From an uncultured delta proteobacterium (GTDB taxonomy: Bacteria > Desulfobacterota > Binatia > UBA9968), in assembly GCA_963755715.1 (NCBI GenBank), contig CAVWLW010000076.1, positions 1 to 64,000 of the forward strand: a DNA stretch of 64,000 nucleotides. The letters are read 5' to 3'. The position numbers and the translations under genes were made by a program. Below are positions 45,259 through 55,631 of this stretch, in pieces. Below the pieces are notes generated by a model. That model saw nothing but the letters and a program-made list of their open reading frames with translations. It ran no database searches and was not told the origin of the DNA. Within the stretch, counting starts at the first letter, position 1. Every line of letters begins with the position of its first letter.

Positions 45259-47452
45259 TCAGAATCTCGCGCTCACGCTGCCGATGAACGTGCGCCCGGC
45301 CCCCGGCACGCTGTGCGAAGGATGCACGGCCTCAATGAAGAACTGGTTGGTCATATTCAGAGCGTTGAAACGCAATTGAATTTTCTCCGTCAGATTGTAC
45401 GCGACCGTGGAATCCCAGCGGATGTAGCCGGGGACGCGGTTAATGTTGGCGTTATTGGCGTAGCGGCTGCTCACGTAGGTGGGCCCGCCGCCGATCTGCC
45501 ATTTCTCCAGGAAGTCGTAGGTGCTCCAGAAGTTGGCGCTATACTTGGGGATGTTTTGCGGGACTTTGCCTTTAAGGGGAATGGTGACTCCCTCCACTAC
45601 TTGAGTATCGTTCGACTTAAGGATCTCCGCGTCAAGATAGGTATAGCTCGCAAAGACGTTCCAGCCAGGGAGAATGCGGCCAACCAAACTCATCTCAAAT
45701 CCTCGCGATCGTTGTTTGCCGTCGAGCGCCTGAACGCCGGTTGCCGGGTCATTGGTGCGGGCATTGGTCTTTTCGATGTTGAATAGCGCCGATTGGAGAT
45801 TTAGCGCGCCCTGCAAGAAGCTCTAATTTTGCGCCGATCTCGAAGATCTCGTTTTTTTCCGGCGCCAGAGCCTCGTTGTTGGCGGCAAGCACCAACCCTT
45901 CGGCCGAGGGATTGAAGGATGTGCCATAGGAAAAGTAATAGCTTTGCGTCGGCCTGGGATGGAAAACCAACCCGCCGCGGTAGCTCATCAGATTATCCGT
46001 ATGCTCGAAATCTATCCCGCCCGGCAACCGGTTGTCTTGTTTAGCGCGGTAGTAGTCGTACCGGAGCCCGCCGACGATGTCGAAATATTCGCCCAGCCTG
46101 ATCTGGTCGGCACCATAAATACCGAAGCCGGTCGCCAGCGTGTCTTGCTTCACGTTGACCGTTTTGGCCGCCGGCAACTGGTTGTTATTAGGATCGGAGA
46201 GGGTCGTAGCGGGGCCGGCGCTTGCCCAACGAAGTTGATCGAAAGTTTCACGGCCCACCTCCAGGCCGGTGGTGAGTACGTGCTTGAAGCTGTAGGTATC
46301 GAATTTGGCGGTGAGATCCATCTGATTGCTGAGAATACTTTCTTGCGTATCTCGTTCCGGCCGACTCCTAGTGACGCCGGTCACGATGGCCGCGGGTCCA
46401 TTACAAGTAACGTTGCTGCATGTCACGGCGGGAATGCTGGGATCGGCATGGCGGTCGATATGGCTGTAGCGCAGCACGTTGCGCAGGCTTATCTGATCAT
46501 TGAAGGCGTGGTTGATGATGCCCGTGCCAATATTGGTAAATGTTTTTTCAAAGTCGCTTTTGGTCAGCCCGTACCACGTGTCGCGGTCAACGCGCACCGG
46601 CTTGCCGTGGAGAAAGGGCAATCCATCGTCCGGGATATTGTCCTCGTGCTGACCGAAGTAACTCACGGTCGCCTGTGTCGGTGTGCCCAGACCGTAGGTA
46701 AATGAAGGTGCGATGCCTTGGCGCGACCCTTCGACATGATTGCGCTCCACGATATCGGCTCGCTGCGCCATGAAGTTCAAGCGCAGAGCGGAGTTTTCCC
46801 AAAGAGGCTGATTGAAATCTCCCGTGCCCCGGAAGTACGTGCCACTGCCGCCGTTGAACACGCCGCTGTACAGAGATTCGGATAGCGGCATCTTGCTCAC
46901 CTGGTTGATGATGCCGCCGGTGGAGCCGCGACCGAAATAGCTGGAAGAGGGTCCCTTGATAACTTCGACGGACTGGATATTGAAGACGTCGCGAAAATAG
47001 GATCCTTGATCGCGGACACCGTCGATGAACATGTCATTGCGCGCGTTGAAGCCGCGCAGCGTGAAGCCGTCTCCCTGCGAGCCGCCGGCTTCGCCTGCGG
47101 TAATGCCGATGCCGGAGACGTTGCGCAGCGCGTCGCGCAGGGTGGTGCCGCCCTGCTCCTGGATTAACTTGTCCGGCACGACGATAACCGCTTGAGGCGT
47201 GTCTTGCAGCGGCACGGCAAATTTCGGCAGCGAAGACTGCGGCACGACATAGGGGCTATTTTGTTCTTGCACTACCACCGGCGGCAGGTTGATAGGTTCC
47301 TCTTTCTTGGGCTCCGCAGCGAAGGCGTTGCTGGCCAGAGCGAAAGAAAAAGCCACCGCCCGGCTGACGCCTTCGCCGGCCGCAAGACACATTTTTTGCA
47401 AAGCTGTCTTGTTTTGTTTTCTATCGTTGGCGCGTTTTTGTTGTCGACTCAT
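45259..47452 (-). CDS. TonB-dependent siderophore receptor (Fiu/PiuA-like); frameshift near 45815
   Basis: DTPQAV..LRNVSGI..GEAGG..LRGF..DGVRD..EVIKGPSS..GRGSTGG plug domain; C-terminal Phe. Confidence 0.93.
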
Positions 47453-47478
47453 GCATTCCTCCAATGAAGTATATTTTT

Positions 47479-47517
47479 GCTGGCTGGCATGAGTCGGCTC
47501 ATACTCTGGCTGGCTGG
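47479..47517 (-). promoter_or_regulatory. Putative HemP/HmuP-responsive RNA element in the receptor leader
   Basis: mRNA sense CCAGCCAGCCAG-agt-AUGAG-ccga-CUCAU-g-CCAGCCAGC, between the hemP stop and the receptor RBS. Confidence 0.6.
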
Positions 47518-47528
47518 GTTGGTAAGTT

Positions 47529-47720
47529 TTATTTCGTCAAAATAAGCTTGCCGTTTCGCGTAATGCGCAAGTTGTATTCCTGATTCTGATGCACGATGAC
47601 GATCTCGCTGTTGCCTTGAAAAAGGTGGTTGCTTTCGATGCGCGGTTTGGGGCTAGTCGAAGCGGACGCGATCGCGCCGCCCGGTCGTTTCATCGCATAA
47701 TCCATAAGTATCTCTCTCAT
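47529..47720 (-). CDS. hemP: Hemin uptake protein HemP/HmuP
   Basis: IESNHLFQGNSEIVIVHQNQEYNLRITRNGKLILTK signature. Confidence 0.92.
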   Translation of the reverse strand: MREILMDYAMKRPGGAIASASTSPKPRIESNHLFQGNSEIVIVHQNQEYNLRITRNGKLILTK

Positions 47721-47728
47721 CGGTTTTC

Positions 47729-48550
47729 CTAGCGAAGCTCGAACTTCACCGGCAACATTACCCATACCGCCACCGCTTCCTTGCCCCTGCGAGCCGGTTC
47801 GAAGAGCCATTTTTTTACGGCGTCCATCGCGGAGAGATCGAGCTCGCGAAAGCCGGCGGATTGCTCCACGATGACGTCTGAGACCCGGCCGTTTTCCAGC
47901 ACGCGCACGCGGAGCGTGGTCACGCCCTGCGCGCCCGCTCTGCGCGCCGACTCCGGATAGCGCGGCTTAACCTGATAGCCGCCGAGCGGCCGGGCAACGC
48001 TTGAAAGCCCTTCGCCGGAACCGCCGCCGCCGGTGCCGTCGCCCTTGGCGCCTCGTCCCAGACCCGCGCTGCCAGTGCCGCCACCGCCGCCTTCGAGGCT
48101 GCTGCCGCCGATTACAGCTGTGTCGCCTTTGCCGAAAAGATTGCCGGCACCGGCGGCGCTGCCTTCGGCTTCGCTTGCTTTGGATCCGAGATTCCAGCCT
48201 GCGTTGGCCGAGCCTTTGTTGTCCGACAATGACGGCGGCGGCGCCGGCTCGATCGGCTTTTCTTTGATTTCTGCTTTAGAATTTCCCAGCGGCGGCACGG
48301 GCTTGGTCTCAAGCGTCGGCTTGGAAAGAAGTTTCGGCGCGGTAATATTTTTTGGCTTTGGCGCCGGCGGAGGCGGTGGCGCGACTTCGATTTTCTTCGG
48401 CTCCTCGACGCGCGGCACGTCGACGAGCTCGATGGGCACCATGGCGGGTTTGATCGGTTTGGCGTGCATTACTAATGCCGCCAGCGGAATGATCCCCAAA
48501 TGAATCAACGATGACGCAGTAAATGACGATACCAACCAGCGCTCGTTCAT
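47729..48550 (-). CDS. tonB: Energy transducer TonB
   Basis: N-terminal SxxxH TM helix, Pro/Lys-rich linker, PRYPESARRAG..G, WLFEPA. Confidence 0.93.
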   Translation of the reverse strand: MNERWLVSSFTASSLIHLGIIPLAALVMHAKPIKPAMVPIELVDVPRVEEPKKIEVAPPPPPAPKPKNITAPKLLSKPTLETKPVPPLGNSKAEIKEKPIEPAPPPSLSDNKGSANAGWNLGSKASEAEGSAAGAGNLFGKGDTAVIGGSSLEGGGGGTGSAGLGRGAKGDGTGGGGSGEGLSSVARPLGGYQVKPRYPESARRAGAQGVTTLRVRVLENGRVSDVIVEQSAGFRELDLSAMDAVKKWLFEPARRGKEAVAVWVMLPVKFELR

Positions 48551-48960
48551 TTTTTCTGCTCCTTTGGTTTGACCGCGATCGCCATCTTGGCGACGTTGGC
48601 GCTGCGCGCGATGTCCATGACTTCGACGACATGGCCATGCTCGACGCCGTCGTCGGCATTGATCACGACCAAAAGCTCGGGATTTTTGGCGATTAGCCCG
48701 CCCAATCGGTCCGCTAAAGAGGTTTTCTCGACGGGCTGTTTATCGAGAAAGATCTGGTGTTCTTTATTGATCGTGATGGCCGCACTCTCGGCCGGCGCTT
48801 GCTGGCCAGAAGCGGCTTTGGGCAGATTGACCGGCATGCCTTTGAATTGCGTCATCGACAAAGTCGAGATCATGAAAAAGACCAGCAGGAAGAAGATCGT
48901 ATCGATCATCGGGATGATCTCGATGCGCGCTTTTTTTATGCTGCGGCGTTGAATGCGCAT
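48547..48960 (-). CDS. exbD: ExbD/TolR
   Basis: IEIIPMIDTIFFLLVFFM; VNLPKA; INAD; VVEVMD. Confidence 0.93.
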   Translation of the reverse strand: MRIQRRSIKKARIEIIPMIDTIFFLLVFFMISTLSMTQFKGMPVNLPKAASGQQAPAESAAITINKEHQIFLDKQPVEKTSLADRLGGLIAKNPELLVVINADDGVEHGHVVEVMDIARSANVAKMAIAVKPKEQKK

Positions 48961-49568
48961 CAGTGTTTCCCCGCTTGGACGTGCAACTGCAATTCGAGCG
49001 ACGAGCTGAAATGTTCCATCTGGTCCATTTCCCGTTCCGCCCGCGCGGTGAAGTAGTTGTAGGAGACAAGGGTCAGGATCGCGATCAACAAGCCGGTGGC
49101 CGTGGCGATCAAAGCTTCGGCGACGCCGCCGGTAACGGCGTGAGGTTGCCCGATGCCCACATCGGCCATGACGTCGAAGGAGCCGATCATGCCAACCACC
49201 GTACCGAGCAAGCCGAGCAGCGGCGCGAGCGTGACGATCGTGTCGAGCACGCCGAGACGTCTTTTCAGCACCGGGATCTCGGCCTGGGCAGCCGCTTCCA
49301 TCGCCTTCGCCGGCGCGGGATTGCGGTGCGCAATGCCAGCGGCCATGACTCGCGCGATCGGTTGCTGCGAGGTTTTTCCCAGCTTCAAGGCTTGGTCGAA
49401 TTCGCCCTGCTCGACGTGCGTCAAAATTTCGCGGAGCACCTCTCGCGATTTCAGTTTCGCCCAAAACAAGATTCGCTCGATGGTGAGAGCGAGCGAGATT
49501 AAAGAACAAATCAGGAGCGGTATCATGACGATCCCACCCTTGACGATGACGGCAACGACCTGCGCCAT
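48960..49568 (-). CDS. exbB: ExbB/TolQ
   Basis: LAPLLGLLGTVVGMI; GGVAEALIATATGL. Confidence 0.93.
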   Translation of the reverse strand: MAQVVAVIVKGGIVMIPLLICSLISLALTIERILFWAKLKSREVLREILTHVEQGEFDQALKLGKTSQQPIARVMAAGIAHRNPAPAKAMEAAAQAEIPVLKRRLGVLDTIVTLAPLLGLLGTVVGMIGSFDVMADVGIGQPHAVTGGVAEALIATATGLLIAILTLVSYNYFTARAEREMDQMEHFSSSLELQLHVQAGKH

Positions 49569-49570
49569 GA

Positions 49571-49771
49571 CTAGTGCACCGATCCTTTCTTGACTTCTGC
49601 GTCGAGTCGCTCGACGCTGTCCGCCACGCTCTGCAACGCCAGCCCCAGGGCGCGCAAATCATCGAGGGAGATATGCAGCACACAATTGCCGTAATGAAAG
49701 TGGACGGTATCTCGACTGCAGTTGCACAGAGAGACCGACCATTTGCCTTCGCGCGATTTGATTCCATCCAT
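49571..49771 (-). CDS. Small Cys/His-containing hypothetical protein, first gene of the exbB operon
   Basis: RBS GGAGG; MDGIKSREGKWSVSLCNCSRDTVHFHYGNCVLHI...; stop 2 nt before exbB. Confidence 0.65.
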   Translation of the reverse strand: MDGIKSREGKWSVSLCNCSRDTVHFHYGNCVLHISLDDLRALGLALQSVADSVERLDAEVKKGSVH

Positions 49772-49784
49772 TTTGACCTCCAAT

Positions 49785-49829
49785 AAAAAAGCCCGAAGTC
49801 CCGCCGATTGTTCCGGCGCGCATCGGGCT
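49785..49829 (-). terminator. Intrinsic terminator/attenuator in the exbB operon leader
   Basis: mRNA AGCCCGA..CGCCG-loop-CGGCG..UCGGGCU-UUUUU immediately before the RBS. Confidence 0.7.
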
Positions 49830-49855
49830 CTGGATTCATGACCGCTGGCCGCTGA
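49820..49855 (-). promoter_or_regulatory. Conserved 36-nt leader element, copy 1
   Basis: UCAGCGGCCAGCGGUCAUGAAUCCAGAGCCCGAUGC; 31/36 identical to 53319-53354. Confidence 0.7.
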
Positions 49856-49862
49856 CTTATTT

Positions 49863-49891
49863 CGTATATTAAAATGAAAATTAGTTGTCAA
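49863..49891 (-). promoter_or_regulatory. Sigma70 promoter of the exbB-tonB-piu operon
   Basis: TTGACA-N17-TATACG; the spacer overlaps an imperfect Fur-like TGAAAAT..TCA. Confidence 0.65.
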
Positions 49892-49906
49892 CACTAATAA
49901 AAAAGA

Positions 49907-49920
49907 TTAGTCTATACGAA
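49907..49920. promoter_or_regulatory. Putative DtxR-family operator, copy 1
   Basis: Minus strand TTCGTATAGACTAA, 12/14 identical to TTCGTATAGGCGAA at 58188. Confidence 0.45.
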
Positions 49921-49948
49921 AGACTGGGCAAAAGGGCTCTAATCAGAG

Positions 49949-50128
49949 TCAGCTAGTCGGTTTCGACACGGTTGGTCGGTCGGTTGCGGCCAACAACGGA
50001 ATGACCCACCGTCTTTTACAGCGACGACACTTGAGCTCCACTCCATCTGGCACTAAACGGGCCAGGAGATTGCCGCATTGACAGCGTAACGGCTCAGCGG
50101 GCGATTTTTTGGCGGCTTCTTTTTCCAT
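49949..50128 (-). CDS. Com-like (Mu Com family) zinc-ribbon protein, copy 1
   Basis: LRCQCGNLLARLVPDGVELKCRRCKR. Confidence 0.8.
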   Translation of the reverse strand: MEKEAAKKSPAEPLRCQCGNLLARLVPDGVELKCRRCKRRWVIPLLAATDRPTVSKPTS

Positions 50129-50189
50129 CGAAAAACCAAGTAAATTTTCACGTTTGCTTCGACCGTGGCAGCAAGCAGACGCGAGCGAA

Positions 50190-50750
50190 TCAGGCGCGAT
50201 TACGGCGGAACTCTTTGTCTCGATGCCTTGCAGCCCTGCTGCGGGCGCTGTTCGAGGGCTTCTCAAGCTCGAGCAGCTTGGCGGTCCAGCCCCGCCCCGC
50301 CAGAATATGGGCGCAGAGAAGCGGCAAAGCGATCAGACCGATCACCCAATGGATCGTGCTGCTAAATTCGCGCACGGCGTCATCGCTCACGTAGTAGAGC
50401 AGCCAGCCGGATAGCACCAGCACGCCGTTCAGCGCGATCATCGTGAAGCCTGACAGACGGTTTGCCTTCAGAGCGGTGCCGCGCCGGATATGCGCGATGA
50501 GCGTGCCCAACAGCGCGAGGTAGACAAGCATGGTTGCGCCGTGAACTTTCATGCTGATCGTTTGCAGCAAAGTTCGCGCTACGCCAAGCTCCGGATCCTT
50601 GAACCACTCGATAAGCAGCCACAAGCTTCCACTGCCCCACAAAACGCCGAATACAATATAGAAGAGCCGGCGGTGCCAAGGTTCGAGCCGCACCTTCTCC
50701 CGCAGCAAGGCGACGATCTTGGCGGTGCGATCAGTGGCTTTATCGCTCAT
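50190..50750 (-). CDS. Membrane protein with four TM His residues (cytochrome b-like), ApbE-associated
   Basis: Four hydrophobic helices; KVHG, AHIRRG, TIHW, AHIL. Confidence 0.7.
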   Translation of the reverse strand: MSDKATDRTAKIVALLREKVRLEPWHRRLFYIVFGVLWGSGSLWLLIEWFKDPELGVARTLLQTISMKVHGATMLVYLALLGTLIAHIRRGTALKANRLSGFTMIALNGVLVLSGWLLYYVSDDAVREFSSTIHWVIGLIALPLLCAHILAGRGWTAKLLELEKPSNSARSRAARHRDKEFRRNRA

Positions 50751-50766
50751 TGGATCTCGATCCCAC

Positions 50767-51696
50767 TCAGATTATCTCCTGCATCTGAGCGGGCCTAAAC
50801 CGCGGTGGATTCCCGAGGCTTCGCCGTCGCGCCGATTGCGCAATGCAACGAACACCGCGCCCGTCGATGATAATCGCTTGTGCGCCGAATTGCGGCAAAA
50901 TTTTTGCCGCGCGCCGCGGCGCCAGACGAACGACCTTGGTGAGCGCATCGGCAATCAGGCAACGCGGTGCGACGACGGTGACGCTCTGTTGCCAACGCAT
51001 TGTGGTGTTTCGTCGCGGATCGACCAGTGGATCGGTGCTATCGCCATCTTCGCGGCGCTCGGTAAAGCAGCCGCTGGAGCTTGCGACCGCCGCGTCTGTG
51101 AGAGTGCCAAGAGAAAATAATCGCGACGCATCTTCGGGGTGACGAATATGGATTGGCTGAGGGGCGCCGAAGGCGTAGAGATCGCCACCGGCGTTCACAA
51201 TGCCGCTGTCGACGCCGTTGCATTTGAGCGTTGCAGCCGCTCGATCGACCGCATAGCCTTTGGCAATCCCGCCAAGATCAATCCAGGCGCGGCGTCGTAA
51301 CAGCACGCGATTGTCGGAAAGCAAACTCAGGTCGCGGAAATTGGCTTCTTCAGACGGCCATTCAGCATCTTCCGGCTTGGGCAAAAACCCCGCAGCGACG
51401 AGCTTGCCTCCGACCGTGATGTCGAACGCTCCGTCGGAGAGCGCGCTGATTTTTTGCGCCCAGGAAAGGACTTCATAGGTTCTCGGGTCAACTTGCTGCG
51501 CAGTCAGAAGCGGCGCGCGATTGAGGCGCGCTATATCGCTGTCGGTTTCGTGAAAACTCATCAGCCGATGGATGATTTCAATTTCACGAAAAGCCGCCTC
51601 GATGGCCGGCGCGGCGTTCTCGCCTGCGGCACCGACTTCGACGAGCGTACCCAGCAAGGGCCGGGCGCGGCGTATTTCATTTGAAAGCGACTTCAT
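50767..51696 (-). CDS. apbE: FAD:protein FMN transferase
   Basis: RPLLGTLV, GAFDIT, DLGGIAKGYAVD, VNAGGD, ADALTK. Confidence 0.93.
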   Translation of the reverse strand: MKSLSNEIRRARPLLGTLVEVGAAGENAAPAIEAAFREIEIIHRLMSFHETDSDIARLNRAPLLTAQQVDPRTYEVLSWAQKISALSDGAFDITVGGKLVAAGFLPKPEDAEWPSEEANFRDLSLLSDNRVLLRRRAWIDLGGIAKGYAVDRAAATLKCNGVDSGIVNAGGDLYAFGAPQPIHIRHPEDASRLFSLGTLTDAAVASSSGCFTERREDGDSTDPLVDPRRNTTMRWQQSVTVVAPRCLIADALTKVVRLAPRRAAKILPQFGAQAIIIDGRGVRCIAQSARRRSLGNPPRFRPAQMQEII

Positions 51697-52208
51697 AGGT
51701 TGCCAAAACCCGTTTCACGCCGTCGGCGATGTGGCGGCACGAGAGCGTCGCGCCGCTGATGTTCTTGATGTCTTTATTGAGTTTGAGCGGCGCCGCCGCG
51801 TTCTTGCCGACAAACTGCGCGCGCCAGTCGGCGTTGCGCACTTCGTAGCCGTAGCTTTCCCGATAGGTCAGGATCTCGATTTGCTTAACCGTGCCGTCAG
51901 GCGTTGAGGCCGACGGCGTAGGTGATGAATTCGTGTTTGCCCACCACCTCGTCGACTACGAAGAAGCCGCCGTTGGCCACTTTCCACAATTGTATTTCTT
52001 TGTGCCTGACGTTGGCGTCGCTGCGCCGCGCAATTTCACGCGCCTGCTCGTTAGTGAGCGTGATATTAGCCGGCGCGAGTTTTTCCCCAGGGAAAATCGC
52101 TTGTTGTGCTTGCTCCACGGTCAGATAAGTGGCGCCATACGCGGCTGGGGCCAGTATGGCGATGGGGATCTGTGCCGCCGGTAGCCATATCCATTTCGAG
52201 GTACGCAT
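51677..52208 (-). CDS. FMN-binding (flavinylated) protein; frameshift near 51900
   Basis: VVGKHEFITYAVG, then EILTYRESYGYEV and IKNISGATLSCRH (SGAT flavinylation motif). Confidence 0.88.
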
Positions 52209-52300
52209 AGCTATCCCTTACTAAGTGAAGCCGAAAGCGTCATTGCGGCGCGGATAAAAATCCGTAAGCATTGGCGTCTGCCCCGGAAGAATGCCGCTCT

Positions 52301-53178
52301 CTAAAACACCCATGCAACCTTGAGACGAAATTCGTATCGTTCGTGCTCTTCCAATTCCAGGTTGCGGGTTCGTCCCGGTGTAGGCGGCGTGCCAGCCACC
52401 TGGTTCAAGAAGGTGAAAGTGAACCACCATTTTTCTGCGGCGTAGTGGATATTCGGCCCGAGAAAAAAAGCGCCCTCCTGGGGACCTTTAAATTCAGGAT
52501 ATGCCGCATGATAGCGGCCCTCGAGACCGACAAACCACTTTGGTGCGAAGCGATAGGAAATGCCCAAGGTATGCTCTACCTCCAGCTCTCTTTCACGCTC
52601 TCCGCTGGATTTGAACTTCGCCCACTCGGGCTCCAATGTCAGATTGTAGCCGAGGGCCAGTTGATCGTCGAAGAAGTTTTTTTGCAAAATAATTTTGCTC
52701 TCCAAGCCGAACTGATCCATGCGCTCGCCGGAGACCCTGTCAATTCGCGAATAGGACGGTTCCAAATACAGAGATAGTCCGAAAAGATCTTTGTAGACGC
52801 TCAACAGGTTGTACTTGAAGGCGAAATTCACGCCATTAAACTCGAGCCCACGAGAAATGTCGCGGTCCGGATCGTCTTCGAGGGCGCCGCCGGAGATCTG
52901 GTGGGACCGGCCTTTCAGATAAAAAGACGCCTGAAAACGGTCCGTGAAACCGTGTTCCAACTCGAGCATCTCATCCCAACCTCGGTATGTGCCTTTACCT
53001 TTGCTAGCACGAAGGGTGAGCCAATTATAAAGTTCGGTGCCGCCCTTTGGCAGGGTATCGGTACCATAAAGATAACCCCAGAGATTTTCATCGGCGTGAG
53101 CCGGCGGCAGAAAAAACAGCGCGGCGATCCACAGCACCGCCGCCAGCGCTAGGGGAAATCAAATGATCGAAAAAACAT
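52301..53178 (-). CDS. Outer-membrane beta-barrel/putative porin (DUF6662-like); indel in signal peptide
   Basis: RBS AAGGAG; AHA|DENLWGY..TDTLPKG; amphipathic strands; C-terminal Phe. Confidence 0.75.
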
Positions 53179-53287
53179 GACTGCTCCTTTCAAAGATTAA
53201 AGTTGAGGCTTGCTCGCTTCGTTGGATTGCACATCGGTGACCAGCACTACCTTGCTTCGTGCACCCATCTGTACAAAAGAAATTCAT
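53159..53287 (-). CDS. Possible 42-aa leader ORF
   Basis: AAGGAG-N7-ATG; MNFFCTDGCTKQGSAGHRCAIQ...; overlaps the porin start. Confidence 0.35.
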   Translation of the reverse strand: MNFFCTDGCTKQGSAGHRCAIQRSEQASTLIFERSSHVFSII

Positions 53288-53318
53288 AGCCCGACTCCTT
53301 CCTTAGTTATTTTGCGAA

Positions 53319-53354
53319 GCACTGGGCTCTGGATTCTCGACCTCTGGCCGCTGA
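53319..53354 (-). promoter_or_regulatory. Conserved 36-nt leader element, copy 2
   Basis: UCAGCGGCCAGAGGUCGAGAAUCCAGAGCCCAGUGC; its AGCCC can pair with GGGCU between the RBS and AUG 53287. Confidence 0.7.
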
Positions 53355-53401
53355 AGGATCCTGTTGTACGAAGCTTTTTACACGACTTACACTGTCTATC
53401 C

Positions 53402-53537
53402 TCACGGTTCCTTTGGTATCGACGCGGAAGAATCGACGCGACGTTTGCAGCGCCGGCACTTGATTTCTACGCCTTGCGCTGACTAACCGCGCCAAAAGAC
53501 TGCCGCAACAACAGCGGAGGGCGTCCTCATCGCGCAT
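53402..53537 (-). CDS. Com-like zinc-ribbon protein, copy 2 (1-nt indel near 53476)
   Basis: MRDEDALRCCCGSLLARLVS / GVEIKCRRCKRR. Confidence 0.75.
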
Positions 53538-53587: not shown

Positions 53588-55560
53588 CTAAGACTCCACA
53601 GGTCCTTTCTTTCCTGCGCCGACCCACAGGAAAGTCGCAAAAAACGCGCATAGCATAAGCGCTTGAGCCGCTAAACTTTCCAAGGTCGGATAAATTCCCA
53701 GCAGCGGAATCTGCGGCGGGAAACCAAGGGGGTTGTCGAAACCCAGCCCGCGGCCTGTAACTCTTTAATACCGTTACCGGCGAAAATGAACGCAATGATA
53801 TAAAGGAAGGTTCCGGTGACGCCGAAGAAATATTTCAACGGAACTTTGAGGCCGAGCTTCAAAATGGCAAAGGTCAGCACGACAAGAACCGCCAGTCCGG
53901 CGATGAATCCCCAAAGAATCAGATGATGGTCGTTTTCGTTCTGCAGCCATAGCGCTTGGTAAAACAACACGACTTCAAAAGCCTCACGATAGACGGCAAA
54001 AAATGAAATTCCCACCAGTCCGAGAATCTTCTTGCCGTCGACCACGTTCTGTACCTTGTCGTGAATGAAGCTCTGCCACTTCTTGGCCTCGGACTTCGTA
54101 TGCAGCCAATAGCCGACGTAGAACAAAGCTACGGCGGCAAAAACCGAGATAAAGCCCTCCATGCTTTCGCGATGTTGTCCGCTGAAAGTCAAAAACGTTT
54201 GAGTGGCGACCCAGGTGAGGCCGCCGGCGACGAGGGCGAGGACCCAGCCGATGATGGATGTAGCGAACGGCATGCGGTGGCGCCCATGACTTTGAGCATC
54301 GCCAGGATCGCGGCTAGAACCAAAGTCGCTTCCAGTCCTTCGCGCACAATGATCAGCGCGGAATTGAGGAAAAAATAGATGCCCGAGTAGTCGTCGTTGC
54401 GCGCGATGATTTCGCTGGCCCGATCGAGACCCGCTTCGATTTCACTGCGCCGTTTGTCGATCTCTTCCGGCCCAACTCCCTGTTTGATGGCGTTACGGTA
54501 CGCGGTGAATAAGCCCTCGAGGCTGCGGCCGAAGGAGGCGTCTTTGGCGAATAAGGCGGGCTCGGCCAGCTCGTAGCCGTCGATGTAGGCATCGACGGCC
54601 TTTTGATAGGCTTTTTCTTTTTCTCCGGCGGCATAGAGCGCTGCGCTTTCGCGCACCAAGTTCCGAGTCAGCACCAGCGGGTCCGCCGGCTTTTGTTCCA
54701 ACAGACCGCGGCGCAGATAAGCGAGGACATCGTTGACCTGATCTTCCTGATCGAAATAACTCTTAAGTTGTTCCGATAGCTGTTCATCGGAGTCGGTTGC
54801 GAGATTCGCCACGGCGGTCAGCTCCGCCGGCAATTTTTTCTGCTGTATCAGCGCCGCGCCGCGATCGGCTTGTTCGCGCGAGAAACGCAAGGACATGACA
54901 TAGAACGCGACCTGCCAGCGCTGCTCCTCGCTGAGCGCCGCAAACGAAGCCATCGCCGTTCCCTCCACGCCGAAGCTCGCCGTGTTGAAAGCCTTAAACG
55001 GCGACAATCCCGCCATTCGCTCAGGATCGGTGAAATTCGCCGGCGCGGGCGTCTTGGGATTCATCGAACTTCGCCCCGGTCCATCGCCCTTGCCGCTCTC
55101 GCCGTGGCATTGGGCGCAATTCTCCACGTAGAGTTTTTGGCCTGAGTCCAAAGACGGCAACTGTTTAGGATACGGAACGATTTTATATGCGGTGATCAGT
55201 TTTTCTTTGGCGTTCTGGGCGAGCTCGGCGACGATCTGGGGCTCGGCTTTTTTGTCGATCTGTGCGGCCAGTGATTTAATAGTCGATTCGATTCCGGCTC
55301 TGTCCGCCTTGTCGGCTTGTTTGAGCTGATTGAAAAGTTCTTGGCTGCGCTTGGAGAACTCCTGCATCTCGGCGTATTCGTCGGCGCTCAGGATCTTGCC
55401 GTCCTTGACGGCGTTTTTGTAGTCGCTGCCGAGATAGTCGAGTAGCGAGACCAGCCGCTTGGCGTCATCCGGTTGGGCGAAAGCCAGAGGCGCGGTGCTC
55501 AAGAGCGCAGCGATTGCCAGGAAACAAAAGAAGAGACGGCGGATACCGGGAATTCGGTTA
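53588..55560 (-). CDS. Cytochrome c / FTR1 iron permease fusion (PbrT-like); frameshifts, start approximate
   Basis: LLDYLGSDY, CAQCHG, REGLE and REAFE motifs, GIKELQAAG, LGIYPT. Confidence 0.9.
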
Positions 55561-55631
55561 AGTCGGTTGTCTGAGAAGCTACGAAAGCAACGGGTCGAGG
55601 TGGTTTTATTATGAGATGGAGGTTCCATAGA

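What the first reader, a model, noticed from the sequence alone, without database searches (positions are those of the whole stretch)
49785..53537. Two Com-like zinc-ribbon genes, each followed by the same 36-nt element wired to a different expression platform: a candidate protein-controlled RNA switch for iron uptake
Seen: two small CxCG..LLAR..GVE(L/I)KCRRCK proteins (49949-50128 and 53402-53537) each sit at the end of an operon segment. Each is followed within ~50-95 nt by a 36-nt element with 31/36 identity, mRNA sense UCAGCGGCCAG(C/A)GGUC..GAAUCCAGAGCCC..UGC, built from tandem CAG(C/A)GG(C/U)C, GAAUCC and GAGCCC units. In copy 1 the AGCCCGA is the 5' arm of a U-tailed terminator before the exbB-tonB-piu operon, and the element starts just downstream of a TTGACA-N17-TATACG promoter. 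In copy 2 the AGCCC and CUUC pair with GAAGGAG..GGGCU, which would bury an RBS and AUG. The stems differ in partner sequence while the motif is retained. Established: phage Mu Com is a zinc-finger RNA-binding protein that activates mom translation by disrupting an inhibitory hairpin. Inference: here host Com-like proteins, with no phage genes nearby, act as an antiterminator and a translational activator. They may sense metal through the Cys4 site and chain the operon segments into a cascade. I am not aware of this being described for iron uptake.
Basis: partly seen in the sequence, partly recalled or inferred. Interest (0 to 1): 0.88.

Follow-up and report, generated by a model that had tools for sequence, protein, structure and literature searches.

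The report
Com-like protein with RNA switch element
A small bacterial relative of phage Mu's Com protein is consistently paired with a short conserved RNA hairpin that sits against a terminator or ribosome-site-hiding hairpin in front of iron and heme uptake genes, which points to a protein-operated RNA switch not described before for these genes.

Summary
The 36-nt repeat is real (31/36 identical), and these are its only two copies in the 7.4-Mb genome. Copy 1 follows a conserved promoter and forms the 5' arm of a strong terminator. The first Com-like gene is intact. The second is broken by at least two frameshifts in this error-prone assembly.

The pairing is conserved across lineages.
- The element lies within 420 nt downstream of the Com-like gene in 26 of 30 family loci and 66 of 80 public-genome loci. 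These include Candidatus Binatia, Myxococcus, Corallococcus and Pyxidicoccus.
- The element model matched 64 of 76 metagenome loci.
- In 61 family genomes, 32 have both gene and element, 2 have the element only, and 1 has a strong Com hit only.

The protein is a distant homolog of Mu Com (hhalign 95%). The element contains a 3-bp hairpin with compensatory changes and a C..GA loop. This matches the published Mu Com RNA target, and like that target it directly abuts an inhibitory hairpin.

My best reading, at about 0.7 and with no binding shown, is that Com-like binding blocks the terminator or the ribosome-site-hiding hairpin and so switches on metal-uptake genes. Metal sensing by the Cys4 site is untested. 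I found no Rfam family and no paper describing this.

The parts
49949..50128 (-). com-like gene 1: intact, 59 aa, CxC...CxxC zinc ribbon.
   Evidence: ORF list. PHROG gpCom hit. hhalign to Mu Com at 95.4% probability. AF2 core pLDDT about 92 with three strands.
49863..49891 (-). Putative sigma-70 promoter: TTGACA, 17-nt spacer, TATACG. It would start the transcript 2-4 nt before the element.
   Evidence: Read from sequence. TTGACA and the TA.AC core are invariant in 13 of 13 homologous leaders. The strict consensus scan does not call it.
49823..49856 (-). RNA element copy 1. P1 hairpin is G49843-U49841 paired with A49835-C49833, loop CAUGA. Proposed outer helix is GGCC 49847-49850 with G(A)GCC 49826-49830.
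   Evidence: Repeat. CM hit at 47.6 bits. Covariation.
49782..49830 (-). Intrinsic terminator. Its 5' arm is the 3' end of the element, followed by a U-tract.
   Evidence: MFE folds. RNAalifold consensus on 46 homologs.
49571..49771 (-). First gene after element 1: a 66-aa Cys-rich protein of unknown family (RWSVSLCNCS..HFHYGN).
   Evidence: ORF. Homologs in 37 fetched loci. No Pfam or NCBIfam hit.
45749..49568 (-). Genes under element 1: exbB (48960-49568), exbD (about 48547-48951), tonB (47729-48550), a hemP-like gene (within 47529-47810), and a TonB-dependent receptor (from 47464 leftwards).
   Evidence: ORF translations. hemP-like NCBIfam hit NF007559 is below its cutoff. The other names are my reading of the translations and were not scanned against a family library.
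53384..53537 (-). com-like gene 2, interrupted by at least two frameshifts in this assembly.
   Evidence: Two tblastn pieces in different frames. Frames read.
53322..53355 (-). RNA element copy 2.
   Evidence: Repeat. CM hit at 46.9 bits.
53288..53329 (-). Hairpin after copy 2. AGCCC..CUUC pairs with GAAGGAG..GGGCU. It is followed by AUG and a U-rich stretch but has no clean U-tract.
   Evidence: Folds, z = -0.25. The AUG opens a 42-aa ORF without homologs.
50190..53180 (-). Genes between the two elements: DUF6662 outer-membrane protein (52301-53137, start frameshifted), a split FMN-binding-like gene (51677-52208), ApbE (50767-51696) and a membrane protein (50190-50750).
   Evidence: Pfam hits for DUF6662 (3.5e-40) and ApbE (7.7e-47). 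ORFs. 'FMN-binding' is my reading of the translation, since Pfam gave no hit.
53671..55628 (-). Upstream operon ending in com-like gene 2: a cytochrome c-FTR1 iron permease, split in two ORFs.
   Evidence: Pfam Cytochrom_C and FTR1.

Best explanation
The ~34-nt element is a cis-acting leader RNA, and the Com-like zinc-ribbon protein encoded just upstream is its trans-acting partner.

Without the protein, the invariant 3' end of the element (CAGAGCCC) pairs downstream. In Binatia, including copy 1 here, this builds an intrinsic terminator. In Myxococcota and some other lineages it builds a hairpin that hides the ribosome-binding site or start codon. The downstream genes are therefore off by default.

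The Com-like protein binds the small P1 hairpin that directly abuts this inhibitory helix. P1 is a 3-bp stem with a C(N)2-3GA loop, the same kind of site Mu Com binds. Binding probably locks an extended irregular hairpin in which GGCC pairs with G(N)GCC. That removes GAGCC from the terminator or sequestor and lets transcription or translation proceed into the downstream genes. These are exbB-exbD-tonB, outer-membrane proteins, cupredoxin-like proteins and TonB-dependent heme receptors.

In this window, com-like gene 2 would gate read-through from the FTR1 operon into the DUF6662-ApbE segment, which ends in com-like gene 1. Com-like gene 1 would gate the separately promoted exbB-tonB operon. 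That arrangement is a relay with positive feedback.

What is shown: conservation, co-occurrence, homology, the match to the Com target motif, covariation, and mutually exclusive folds. What is inferred: binding, the direction of the effect (activation), and the relay.
For: 1. Specificity. There are 2 copies in 7.4 Mb and none in controls. Two complete myxobacterial genomes of 9.5 and 10.1 Mb each have one com gene and one CM hit, about 100 nt downstream of it. A complete 5.7-Mb Binatia chromosome has one com gene and two hits, 89 nt and 4.2 kb downstream.

2. Adjacency, anchored on the protein. The element lies within 420 nt after the second Cys knuckle in 26 of 30 and 66 of 80 loci. CM hits occur in 64 of 76 metagenome loci, and 71 of the 72 hits are on the com strand.

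3. Co-occurrence. In 61 family genomes, 32 have both, 1 has a strong com hit only, 4 have a weak com hit only, 2 have the element only (one at E 0.002), and 22 have neither. In 151 phylum genomes, the element is in 3 and all 3 have com, while com is in 5.

4. Homology. 18 of 18 proteins hit the PHROG family 'gpCom control of modification'. hhalign against Mu Com gives 95.4% probability and E 1.9e-8.

5. Target match. Mu Com binds 5'-CC(N)2-3GAG-3' in a six-residue loop of a short hairpin next to the translation-inhibition structure, with a GA footprint (PMC6483171, passages). Mu's own sequence shows AUGC[CUGCGA]GCAU directly followed by the CCCAC..GUGGG stem. Here 55 of 78 P1 loops read C..GA, and myxobacterial copies read GGC[CAUUGA]GCC.

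6. Covariation in P1. One pair reads GC 54, GU 12, AU 11, other 1. The next reads UA 58, CG 18, UG 2. An independent metagenome set gives the same pattern, plus A:U replacing G:C at two outer-helix pairs in 3 and 2 sequences and once more in L121.

7. Variable columns. In the independent metagenome set, which was collected without the regex, the columns that vary most are the predicted unpaired ones (6, 11, 13, the loop, 36, 38). The same holds in A3, but there the collecting regex fixed most paired columns.

8. Platforms. RNAalifold predicts P1 plus a terminator across 46 leaders. Other lineages show ribosome-site or AUG sequestors that use the same element nucleotides.

9. Energetics. The extended hairpin alone is weak (-3.3 kcal/mol). 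The terminator state is -34.3 kcal/mol against -22.8 when the hairpin is forced. A bound factor is therefore needed.

10. Biology. The M. xanthus ortholog is MXAN_1314. MXAN_1314-1321 and MXAN_1316-1321 (hemin transport) are reported as induced together (PMC9548883 and PMC3986340, one passage each). A Fur box is reported upstream of MXAN_5023 and MXAN_6911 but is not mentioned for MXAN_1316 (PMC11388931, one passage).
Against: - No binding, read-through or genetic data exist.
- The gene and the element are physically linked inside one uptake island, so part of the co-occurrence is linkage. Related genomes are not independent samples.
- Most of the proposed outer helix never varies. Its covariation rests on a few, probably related, sequences, and on alignments fitted to the model.
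- The A3 set was collected with a regex that fixed many columns, so their invariance there is partly by construction.
- Pfam's Com model is below cutoff, hitting 2 of 18 proteins with best E 0.015.
- The first zinc knuckle is CxC here, not CxxC as in Mu.
- Fold searches gave nothing significant.
- 13 of 78 loops lack both the C and the GA.
- Some com genes have no detectable element: G088/L055, Sorangium L081, and others.
- One target class is a ferritin-like gene whose hairpin lacks a U-tract, which does not fit a simple 'uptake on' logic.
- Com-like gene 2 may be a pseudogene.
Confidence: 0.7

Rival explanations
1. A small-molecule or metal riboswitch. The element itself would bind a ligand such as Fe2+ or heme. 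The Com-like gene would merely be a conserved neighbour or cargo of the same uptake islands.
For: - The architecture is riboswitch-like: one conserved 'aptamer' joined to terminators or ribosome-site sequestors.
- Some copies have no com gene within the fetched locus: L020-L023, L025, L027.
- The target genes are metal-related.
Against: - Only about 30 nt are conserved, with one 3-bp hairpin and a weak irregular helix of -3.3 kcal/mol.
- No Rfam family matches.
- In the phylum sample the element was never found in a genome without com. In the family sample only 2 of 34 element-bearing genomes lacked it, one on a weak hit.
- The element sits downstream of com, not upstream.
- The loop matches the experimentally defined Mu Com site.
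Confidence: 0.1
2. Com-like is a DNA-binding transcription factor, as UniRef names it, and the element is its operator on DNA. It would act as a roadblock or activator site just after the promoter.
For: - UniRef gives the name 'Com family DNA-binding transcriptional regulator'.
- In the promoter-containing class, the element starts a few bases after the -10 box.
Against: - Mu Com is an RNA-binding protein (PMC6483171).
- In many loci the element follows the com stop codon by 17-30 nt with no promoter in between.
- 71 of the 72 metagenome hits are on the sense strand.
- Its conserved 3' end always forms part of an RNA hairpin, either a terminator or a sequestor.
- The element has no dyad symmetry beyond 3 bp.
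Confidence: 0.07
3. The element is a conserved 3' UTR and terminator of the com gene, or a hitch-hiking relic of duplication, with no regulatory role for downstream genes. Alternatively, another factor such as an sRNA or a different protein acts on it.
For: - In the class without a promoter, the element plus terminator directly ends the com transcript.
- The two window copies could stem from a duplication.
Against: - In 13 of 13 leaders of the other class, a conserved promoter lies between com and the element, so the element belongs to the downstream transcript.
- Between the two window loci only the element is repeated, not the coding DNA.
- The core is kept between Binatia and Myxococcus while the flanks and the platform change completely.
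Confidence: 0.08

Closest known systems
Phage Mu Com-mom translational activation
   Same: - A protein of about 60 aa with an N-terminal four-Cys zinc ribbon and a variable tail.
- Profile homology to Mu Com (hhalign 95.4%).
- The gene lies immediately upstream of its target.
- The target is a short hairpin with a C...GA loop, closed by C:G in the myxobacterial copies, that directly abuts an inhibitory hairpin.
- In some Polyangia-like loci the element even overlaps the 3' end of the com ORF, as in Mu.
   Different: - It is chromosomal. I saw no phage genes among the translated neighbours.
- The targets are iron, heme and TonB uptake genes, not a DNA-modification enzyme.
- In Binatia the inhibitory structure is a transcription terminator, whereas Mu Com is known only as a translational activator.
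- The first knuckle is CxC, not CxxC.
- There is an extra conserved 5' segment (AG.GGCCAG) that may form an anti-terminator helix.
- There are up to four target sites per genome.
Com-like (PF10122) genes preceding llpA bacteriocin, tailocin cargo and glycosyl hydrolase genes in Pseudomonas; Com homologs before methyltransferase genes in Mu-like prophages
   Same: A small Com-like gene sits directly upstream of a non-mom cargo gene on bacterial chromosomes. Its regulatory role is stated as 'remains to be explored' (PMC6240691, passages). For PMC3299994 I saw only the listing and abstract.
   Different: - Those proteins meet Pfam's Com model, and the present subfamily does not.
- The passages I read describe no RNA element and no terminator coupling.
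- The cargo there is phage- or bacteriocin-related, not metal uptake.
Protein-dependent antitermination by RNA-binding proteins (BglG/SacY-RAT, HutP, and the like; recalled, not tested here)
   Same: It works alike. A protein stabilises a weak hairpin that overlaps the 5' arm of a terminator in a leader RNA.
   Different: - The protein fold is unrelated: a zinc ribbon, with no CAT/PRD or HutP domain.
- No sugar or amino-acid signal is known.
- The same element also drives translational platforms.
Riboswitches with modular expression platforms
   Same: One conserved sensor sequence is joined to either terminators or ribosome-site sequestors in different lineages.
   Different: The sensor is probably read by a protein. 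No Rfam family matches.

Membership tests
Com family (phage Mu Com-like zinc-ribbon RNA-binding activators, Pfam PF10122) | Sequence homology to Mu Com. | tested here: met
   18 of 18 proteins hit PHROG 13819 'gpCom control of modification', best E 2.5e-5. hhalign of the alignment against Mu Com gives 95.4% probability, E 1.9e-8, over 33 columns. tblastn against 50,697 phage records finds no Com, so the relationship is remote.
Com family (phage Mu Com-like zinc-ribbon RNA-binding activators, Pfam PF10122) | Reaches Pfam's curated cutoff for Zn_ribbon_Com. | tested here: not met
   Only 2 of 18 members match PF10122 at all, best E 0.015. The window protein does not match.
Com family (phage Mu Com-like zinc-ribbon RNA-binding activators, Pfam PF10122) | A protein of about 60 aa with four zinc-binding Cys in two knuckles and a variable tail. 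| tested here: met
   C16, C18, C34 and C37 are invariant in 47 sequences. The AF2 core has three strands with block pLDDT of 92. The first-knuckle spacing is CxC, not CxxC. Zinc binding itself was not tested.
Com family (phage Mu Com-like zinc-ribbon RNA-binding activators, Pfam PF10122) | The RNA target is a short hairpin with a CC(N)2-3GAG-type loop next to an inhibitory structure, encoded just downstream of the com gene. | tested here: met
   The P1 hairpin abuts the terminator or sequestor. 55 of 78 loops read C..GA. The closing pair is C:G in 18 and U:A in 58. The published motif comes from PMC6483171 and Mu's own site. In 13 of 78 the loop lacks both the C and the GA.
Com family (phage Mu Com-like zinc-ribbon RNA-binding activators, Pfam PF10122) | Binds its cognate RNA and activates expression. 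| not testable with these tools
   This needs EMSA, footprinting and genetics.
Protein-dependent leader antiterminators (RAT-type) | A hairpin mutually exclusive with a terminator, too weak to form on its own. | tested here: inconclusive
   The extended hairpin shares GAGCC with the terminator. It is -3.3 kcal/mol alone, against -34.3 kcal/mol for the terminator state. Outer-helix covariation is seen in only a few sequences.
Protein-dependent leader antiterminators (RAT-type) | The regulator carries a CAT/PRD or other known antiterminator domain. | tested here: not met
   Pfam and NCBIfam give only weak generic zinc-ribbon hits.
Known riboswitch or RNA families (Rfam 15) | A match to a curated covariance model. 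| tested here: not met
   There are 0 gathering-score hits in the window. At E up to 10 around copy 1 there are only chance-level hits. Nothing lies at the element in six other loci.
Generic dispersed repeat (REP-like) | Many copies genome-wide, independent of gene context. | tested here: not met
   There are 2 copies in the own genome and 1-4 per genome in relatives, all inside the same uptake islands. Complete 9.5-10-Mb genomes have 1 copy.

The most novel reading that the evidence does not exclude
Com-like zinc ribbons are host regulators that directly sense metal status. The Cys4 site, with its unusual CxC knuckle, would be occupied by Fe, Zn or nothing, or would be oxidised, and this would decide whether the protein can hold the leader hairpin. 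That would give Binatia and Myxococcota a post-initiation iron and heme regulon that acts beside or instead of Fur. It would cover transcription antitermination in one phylum and translational activation in the other, with built-in positive feedback, because some com genes lie behind an element themselves.
Probability: 0.12. Interest if true: 0.9.

Novelty: new variant of a known kind. Interest (0 to 1): 0.78.

Why it matters
Com has been a one-case textbook curiosity of phage Mu, and its many chromosomal relatives have no assigned role. This finding gives a large subfamily a concrete, testable job. That subfamily comprises 513 clusters at 50% identity with E up to 1e-10. The job comes with a defined RNA partner, a defined regulon of TonB energisers, outer-membrane proteins and heme receptors, and two output modes.

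It would be the first Com-type transcription antiterminator, and a new layer of iron and heme uptake control. It occurs in the abundant but uncultured soil class Binatia and in the genetically tractable Myxococcus xanthus. There, MXAN_1314 lies before the hemin-transport cluster MXAN_1316-1321, so the idea can be tested with routine genetics. The compact protein-RNA pair could also serve as a small orthogonal switch.

Tried and rejected
- Rfam: no family matches, either at gathering score or at permissive E around the element.
- PDB sequence search with the protein profile gave only chance-level C1-domain hits.
- Foldseek of the AF2 model against viral and PDB libraries gave nothing at E below 0.1.
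- tblastn of the protein against the phage collection found no Com.
- A third 13-nt core match on contig C45 has no upstream half, no com gene and no terminator. About 0.2 such matches are expected by chance, so I dropped it.
- An alternative 4-bp hairpin, GGCC/GGYC with a triloop, appears in MFE folds. It is broken in the copies that carry A in place of that G (12 of 78 in A3), where the same position covaries within P1 instead. I therefore did not take it as the conserved structure.
- RNA evidence: low-depth contigs from three RNA libraries cover com gene 1 (49937-50206 and 49893-50110) and the small ORF up to inside the element (49577-49832). None bridges the promoter or element. These are contigs at depth 2-3 from relatives at 95-99% identity, so they show neither starts and ends nor absence.
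- The consensus scan calls neither the promoter nor the copy 1 terminator, because of its -10 rule and its loop limit.
- The 42-aa ORF after copy 2 has no homolog in the fetched loci or elsewhere in the genome.
No earlier notes were seen.
- Supplementary files of the Myxococcus papers were not opened. They may hold per-gene expression values for MXAN_1314-1321.
- Complex prediction was not used, because it does not handle RNA partners.

Full report
**Observation.**
All genes in the region run on the minus strand.
- The 36-nt repeat is real: 49820-49855 and 53319-53354, 86% identical.
- A degenerate pattern built from the two copies hits only these two places in the window, with no hit in 100 shuffles. 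At up to 3 mismatches it hits only these two places in the whole 7.4-Mb, 76-contig genome, and the reversed-pattern control gives 0.
- Between the two loci, only the element is repeated. The com coding DNA does not show up as a repeat.
- Com-like ORF 1 (49949-50128) is intact.
- ORF 2 is split. tblastn finds DALRCCCGSLLARLV and AQGVEIKCRRCKRR in different frames, and the tail VDTKGTVRI returns to the first frame.
- Neighbouring genes are broken in the same way: cytochrome c-FTR1, the FMN-binding-like gene, and the start of the DUF6662 gene. Assembly indels are therefore as likely as a pseudogene.
- Upstream of copy 1, TTGACA, a 17-nt spacer and TATACG are present. The strict scan misses this promoter. 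In 13 of 13 homologous leaders, TTGACA and the -10 core are invariant and the element begins about 10 nt after the -10.
- Copy 1's GAGCCC opens a terminator hairpin followed by UUUUUUAUU (MFE -33.8 kcal/mol, z = -2.6).
- Copy 2's AGCCC..CUUC pairs with GAAGGAG..GGGCU beside an AUG. That fold is no better than shuffles (z = -0.25), and the 42-aa ORF it would control has no homolog.

**Conservation.**
- The pattern at up to 3 mismatches occurs in 17 of 30 other genomes of the same genus, with 1-4 copies each. It occurs in 0 of 6 genomes from other genera of the family and 0 of 24 from other families of the order. The controls give 0.
- A profile of 18 Com-like proteins (A1) finds the gene in 37 of 61 family genomes, spread over 17 of 23 genera.
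- Reading downstream of those genes shows diverged copies of the same element in most genera.
- A scan of one genome per GTDB species found 180 loci. The best 80 carry titles such as Candidatus Binatia, 'delta proteobacterium' MAGs, Myxococcus xanthus, Corallococcus, Pyxidicoccus and Sorangium, plus a few MAGs labelled Acidobacteriota, Spirochaetales or Nitrospirae. Public records matching same-genus genomes are labelled Binatia or delta proteobacterium, so the window is probably from Binatia.
- Anchored on the protein only, a regex for the element matches within 420 nt after the second Cys knuckle in 26 of 30 family loci and 66 of 80 public loci. Three more loci in each set have a match 1.0-1.3 kb downstream. 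The two sets share some genomes.
- A covariance model (R1, built from 78 distinct copies) then matched 72 places in 64 of 76 independent metagenome loci that were fetched by protein similarity. Of those 72 matches, 71 lie on the com strand. Four further loci were not searched because of the size limit.

**Co-occurrence.**
- In the same 61 family genomes, 33 have a strong com hit and 34 have an R1 hit. Of these, 32 have both. One has a strong com hit only (G088). Four have only weak com-like hits. Two have the element only (G105 at E 6e-6 and G033 at E 0.002). Twenty-two have neither.
- From the coordinates, 28 of the 32 have an R1 hit within 200 nt downstream of the com match.
- These tallies include two genomes flagged unpublished (G065, G093).
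- In 151 genomes across the phylum, the element is in 3 and all 3 carry com. Com is in 5.
- Myxococcus sp. Y35 (9.5 Mb) and Corallococcus exercitus (10.1 Mb) each have exactly one com gene and one R1 hit, about 100 nt downstream. A complete Binatia chromosome has one com gene and two hits. Two Sorangium genomes have com but no convincing hit.
- Linkage within one island and shared ancestry inflate such counts, so I give no statistic.

**The protein.**
- Pfam does not recognise it: PF10122 matches 2 of 18 members, best E 0.015.
- All 18 hit the PHROG family 'gpCom control of modification'.
- Profile-profile comparison with Mu Com, taken from the phage record, gives 95.4% probability and E 1.9e-8 over 33 columns. 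It aligns LRC-xCG.LLAR..GVEiKCRRCKR with Mu's two knuckles. The first knuckle here is CxC rather than CxxC.
- The four Cys are invariant in 47 sequences.
- AF2 gives a confident three-stranded core with floppy ends.
- Fold searches were uninformative.
- The subfamily is large: 513 clusters at E up to 1e-10.
- Sources name its members 'hypothetical protein', 'phage FluMu protein Com' or 'Com family DNA-binding transcriptional regulator'. One member is MXAN_1314 of M. xanthus DK1622.

**The RNA.**
- RNAalifold on 46 leaders predicts a 3-bp hairpin (P1) followed, after one base, by the terminator.
- P1 covaries. In 78 copies, one pair reads GC 54, GU 12, AU 11, other 1. The next reads UA 58, CG 18, UG 2. 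The independent metagenome set gives GC 38, AU 11, GU 6 and UA 38, CG 14, UG 3.
- The loop reads C(N)2-3GA in 55 of 78 copies.
- Myxobacterial copies read GGC[CAUUGA]GCC. Mu's own site reads AUGC[CUGCGA]GCAU and directly abuts the stem that hides the mom start.
- The published SELEX and footprinting work defines the Com target as 5'-CC(N)2-3GAG-3' in a six-residue loop of a short hairpin next to the translation-inhibition structure, with the GA protected (PMC6483171, passages read).
- The match in both loop format and position is the strongest single argument that the Com-like protein reads this element.

**The proposed outer helix.**
- The conserved 5' segment (AG.GGCCAG) can pair with the 3' segment (CC.G.GCCC) around P1 to form an irregular hairpin.
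- In the independent metagenome alignment, the columns that vary most are the predicted unpaired ones. A3 shows the same.
- G:C is replaced by A:U at one outer pair in three metagenome copies and in L121, and at the outermost pair in two copies.
- This evidence is thin. The variants may share ancestry, the alignment was fitted to the model, and the regex used to collect A3 fixed many columns.
- The hairpin shares GAGCC with the terminator and is weak on its own (-3.3 kcal/mol). Forcing it costs about 11 kcal/mol relative to the terminator state. That is what a protein-locked antiterminator should look like.

**Platforms and regulon.**
- In Binatia the element's 3' end is the 5' arm of a U-tailed terminator.
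- In other lineages the same nucleotides pair with the Shine-Dalgarno site or the start codon of a real gene: L134, L137, L136, and L075 from Corallococcus.
- Genes directly downstream fall into these groups:
  - a 66-70-aa Cys-rich protein followed by exbB-exbD-tonB;
  - DUF6662 outer-membrane proteins;
  - Porin_O_P-like porins;
  - Cupredoxin_1 proteins;
  - DUF4198;
  - a di-haem peroxidase-like protein;
  - a ferritin-like protein, whose hairpin lacks a U-tract;
  - TonB-dependent receptors in Myxococcus and Corallococcus.
- In M. xanthus the hemin-transport genes MXAN_1316-1321 are reported as induced more than 5-fold in iron-sequestering tan variants (PMC3986340, one passage). MXAN_1314-1321 are reported as induced in co-culture with prey (PMC9548883, one passage). 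Fur boxes are reported for two other induced receptor genes but are not mentioned for MXAN_1316 (PMC11388931, one passage).
- Some com genes are themselves preceded by an element, for example L018, L199/L201 and L169. In the window, com gene 1 lies downstream of element 2. Positive feedback is therefore plausible.

**Mechanism and rivals.**
I put about 0.7 on the protein-switch model. Separately, I put about 0.9 on the element being a functional cis-regulatory RNA, about 0.75 on Com-like being its reader, and about 0.65 on the effect being activation. The activation call rests on analogy with Mu and on the default-off design.

The rivals are:
- a ligand riboswitch (0.1);
- a DNA operator for a DNA-binding Com (0.07);
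- a passive 3' UTR, or a target of another factor (0.08).

Metal sensing by the Cys4 site has no evidence for or against it.

**Novelty.**
- No Rfam 15 family matches.
- Full-text searches for Com-like proteins, PF10122, Com with antitermination or TonB, Binatia with riboswitch or iron, and the MXAN locus tags found no description of this pairing.
- Known chromosomal Com-like genes precede bacteriocin, tailocin-cargo or glycosyl-hydrolase genes in Pseudomonas, with their role unexplored (PMC6240691). They also precede methyltransferase genes in Mu-like prophages (PMC3299994, abstract only).
- The library lacks most subscription journals, and I could not read supplements.
- I rate this a new variant of a known kind: the Com principle reused by host chromosomes for metal uptake, with a transcription-termination output that is not known for Com.

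Noticed in passing
window 49571-49771 (-); homologs in 37 fetched loci: A conserved 66-70-aa Cys-rich protein (..RWSVSLCNCS.DT.HFHYGN..LHI..) is the first gene after the element and before exbB in many Binatia loci. It has no Pfam or NCBIfam hit. Shorter variants (RWEI..C..GTVHLHYGTGSLHI) occur in other genera.
   Followed up: partly
window about 49892-49912 (-) and 12 homologous leaders (alignment A5): A partly conserved AT-rich inverted repeat (ACTAAT..N..ATTAGT) lies just upstream of the -35 box of the exbB-operon promoter. It may be an operator for a Fur-like or other repressor. I did not compare it to any operator model.
   Followed up: no
window 51677-52208, 53137-53190, 53671-55628, 45749-47464: Several conserved genes are split by apparent single-base indels: the FMN-binding-like gene, the DUF6662 signal peptide, cytochrome c-FTR1 and the TonB-dependent receptor. 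This suggests an uncorrected long-read style assembly. The same may explain the broken com gene 2.
   Followed up: partly
L022, L023, L025, L027 (same-genus genomes, 9-13 kb from their com gene): A distinct element variant (AAGAGGCCAGCGGTCACGAACCC..) precedes a ferritin-like gene (Pfam Ferritin, 9.7e-25). Its following hairpin has no U-tract. The output and logic of this class are unclear.
   Followed up: partly
L063, L121, L123 (Myxococcota/Polyangiaceae-labelled MAGs): The element lies inside the long C-terminal extension of the open frame that holds the com gene. It therefore may overlap the com coding end, as the Com site does in Mu.
   Followed up: no
L081 3212-3437 (Sorangium sp. So ce1000): A cobalamin riboswitch (96 bits) lies about 570 nt downstream of the com-like gene, and no element is detected there or elsewhere in that genome. 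Sorangium Com-like proteins may read a different site.
   Followed up: no
L018 1944-1977, L199/L201 527-560, L169/L206/L211 about 527-559, L165 610-643: In several loci an element, with a terminator in L018, lies upstream of the com gene itself. This suggests autoregulation.
   Followed up: no
L068 3262-3306 (Nitrospirae-labelled MAG): A weak CM hit (E 0.015) has the conserved flanks but a 15-nt insertion in the P1 loop. It lies about 600 nt after the com gene and may be a long-hairpin variant.
   Followed up: no
genome contig C45 77064-77076 (-): An isolated exact match to the 13-nt core GAATCCAGAGCCC has no upstream half of the element. I judged it a chance match.
   Followed up: yes
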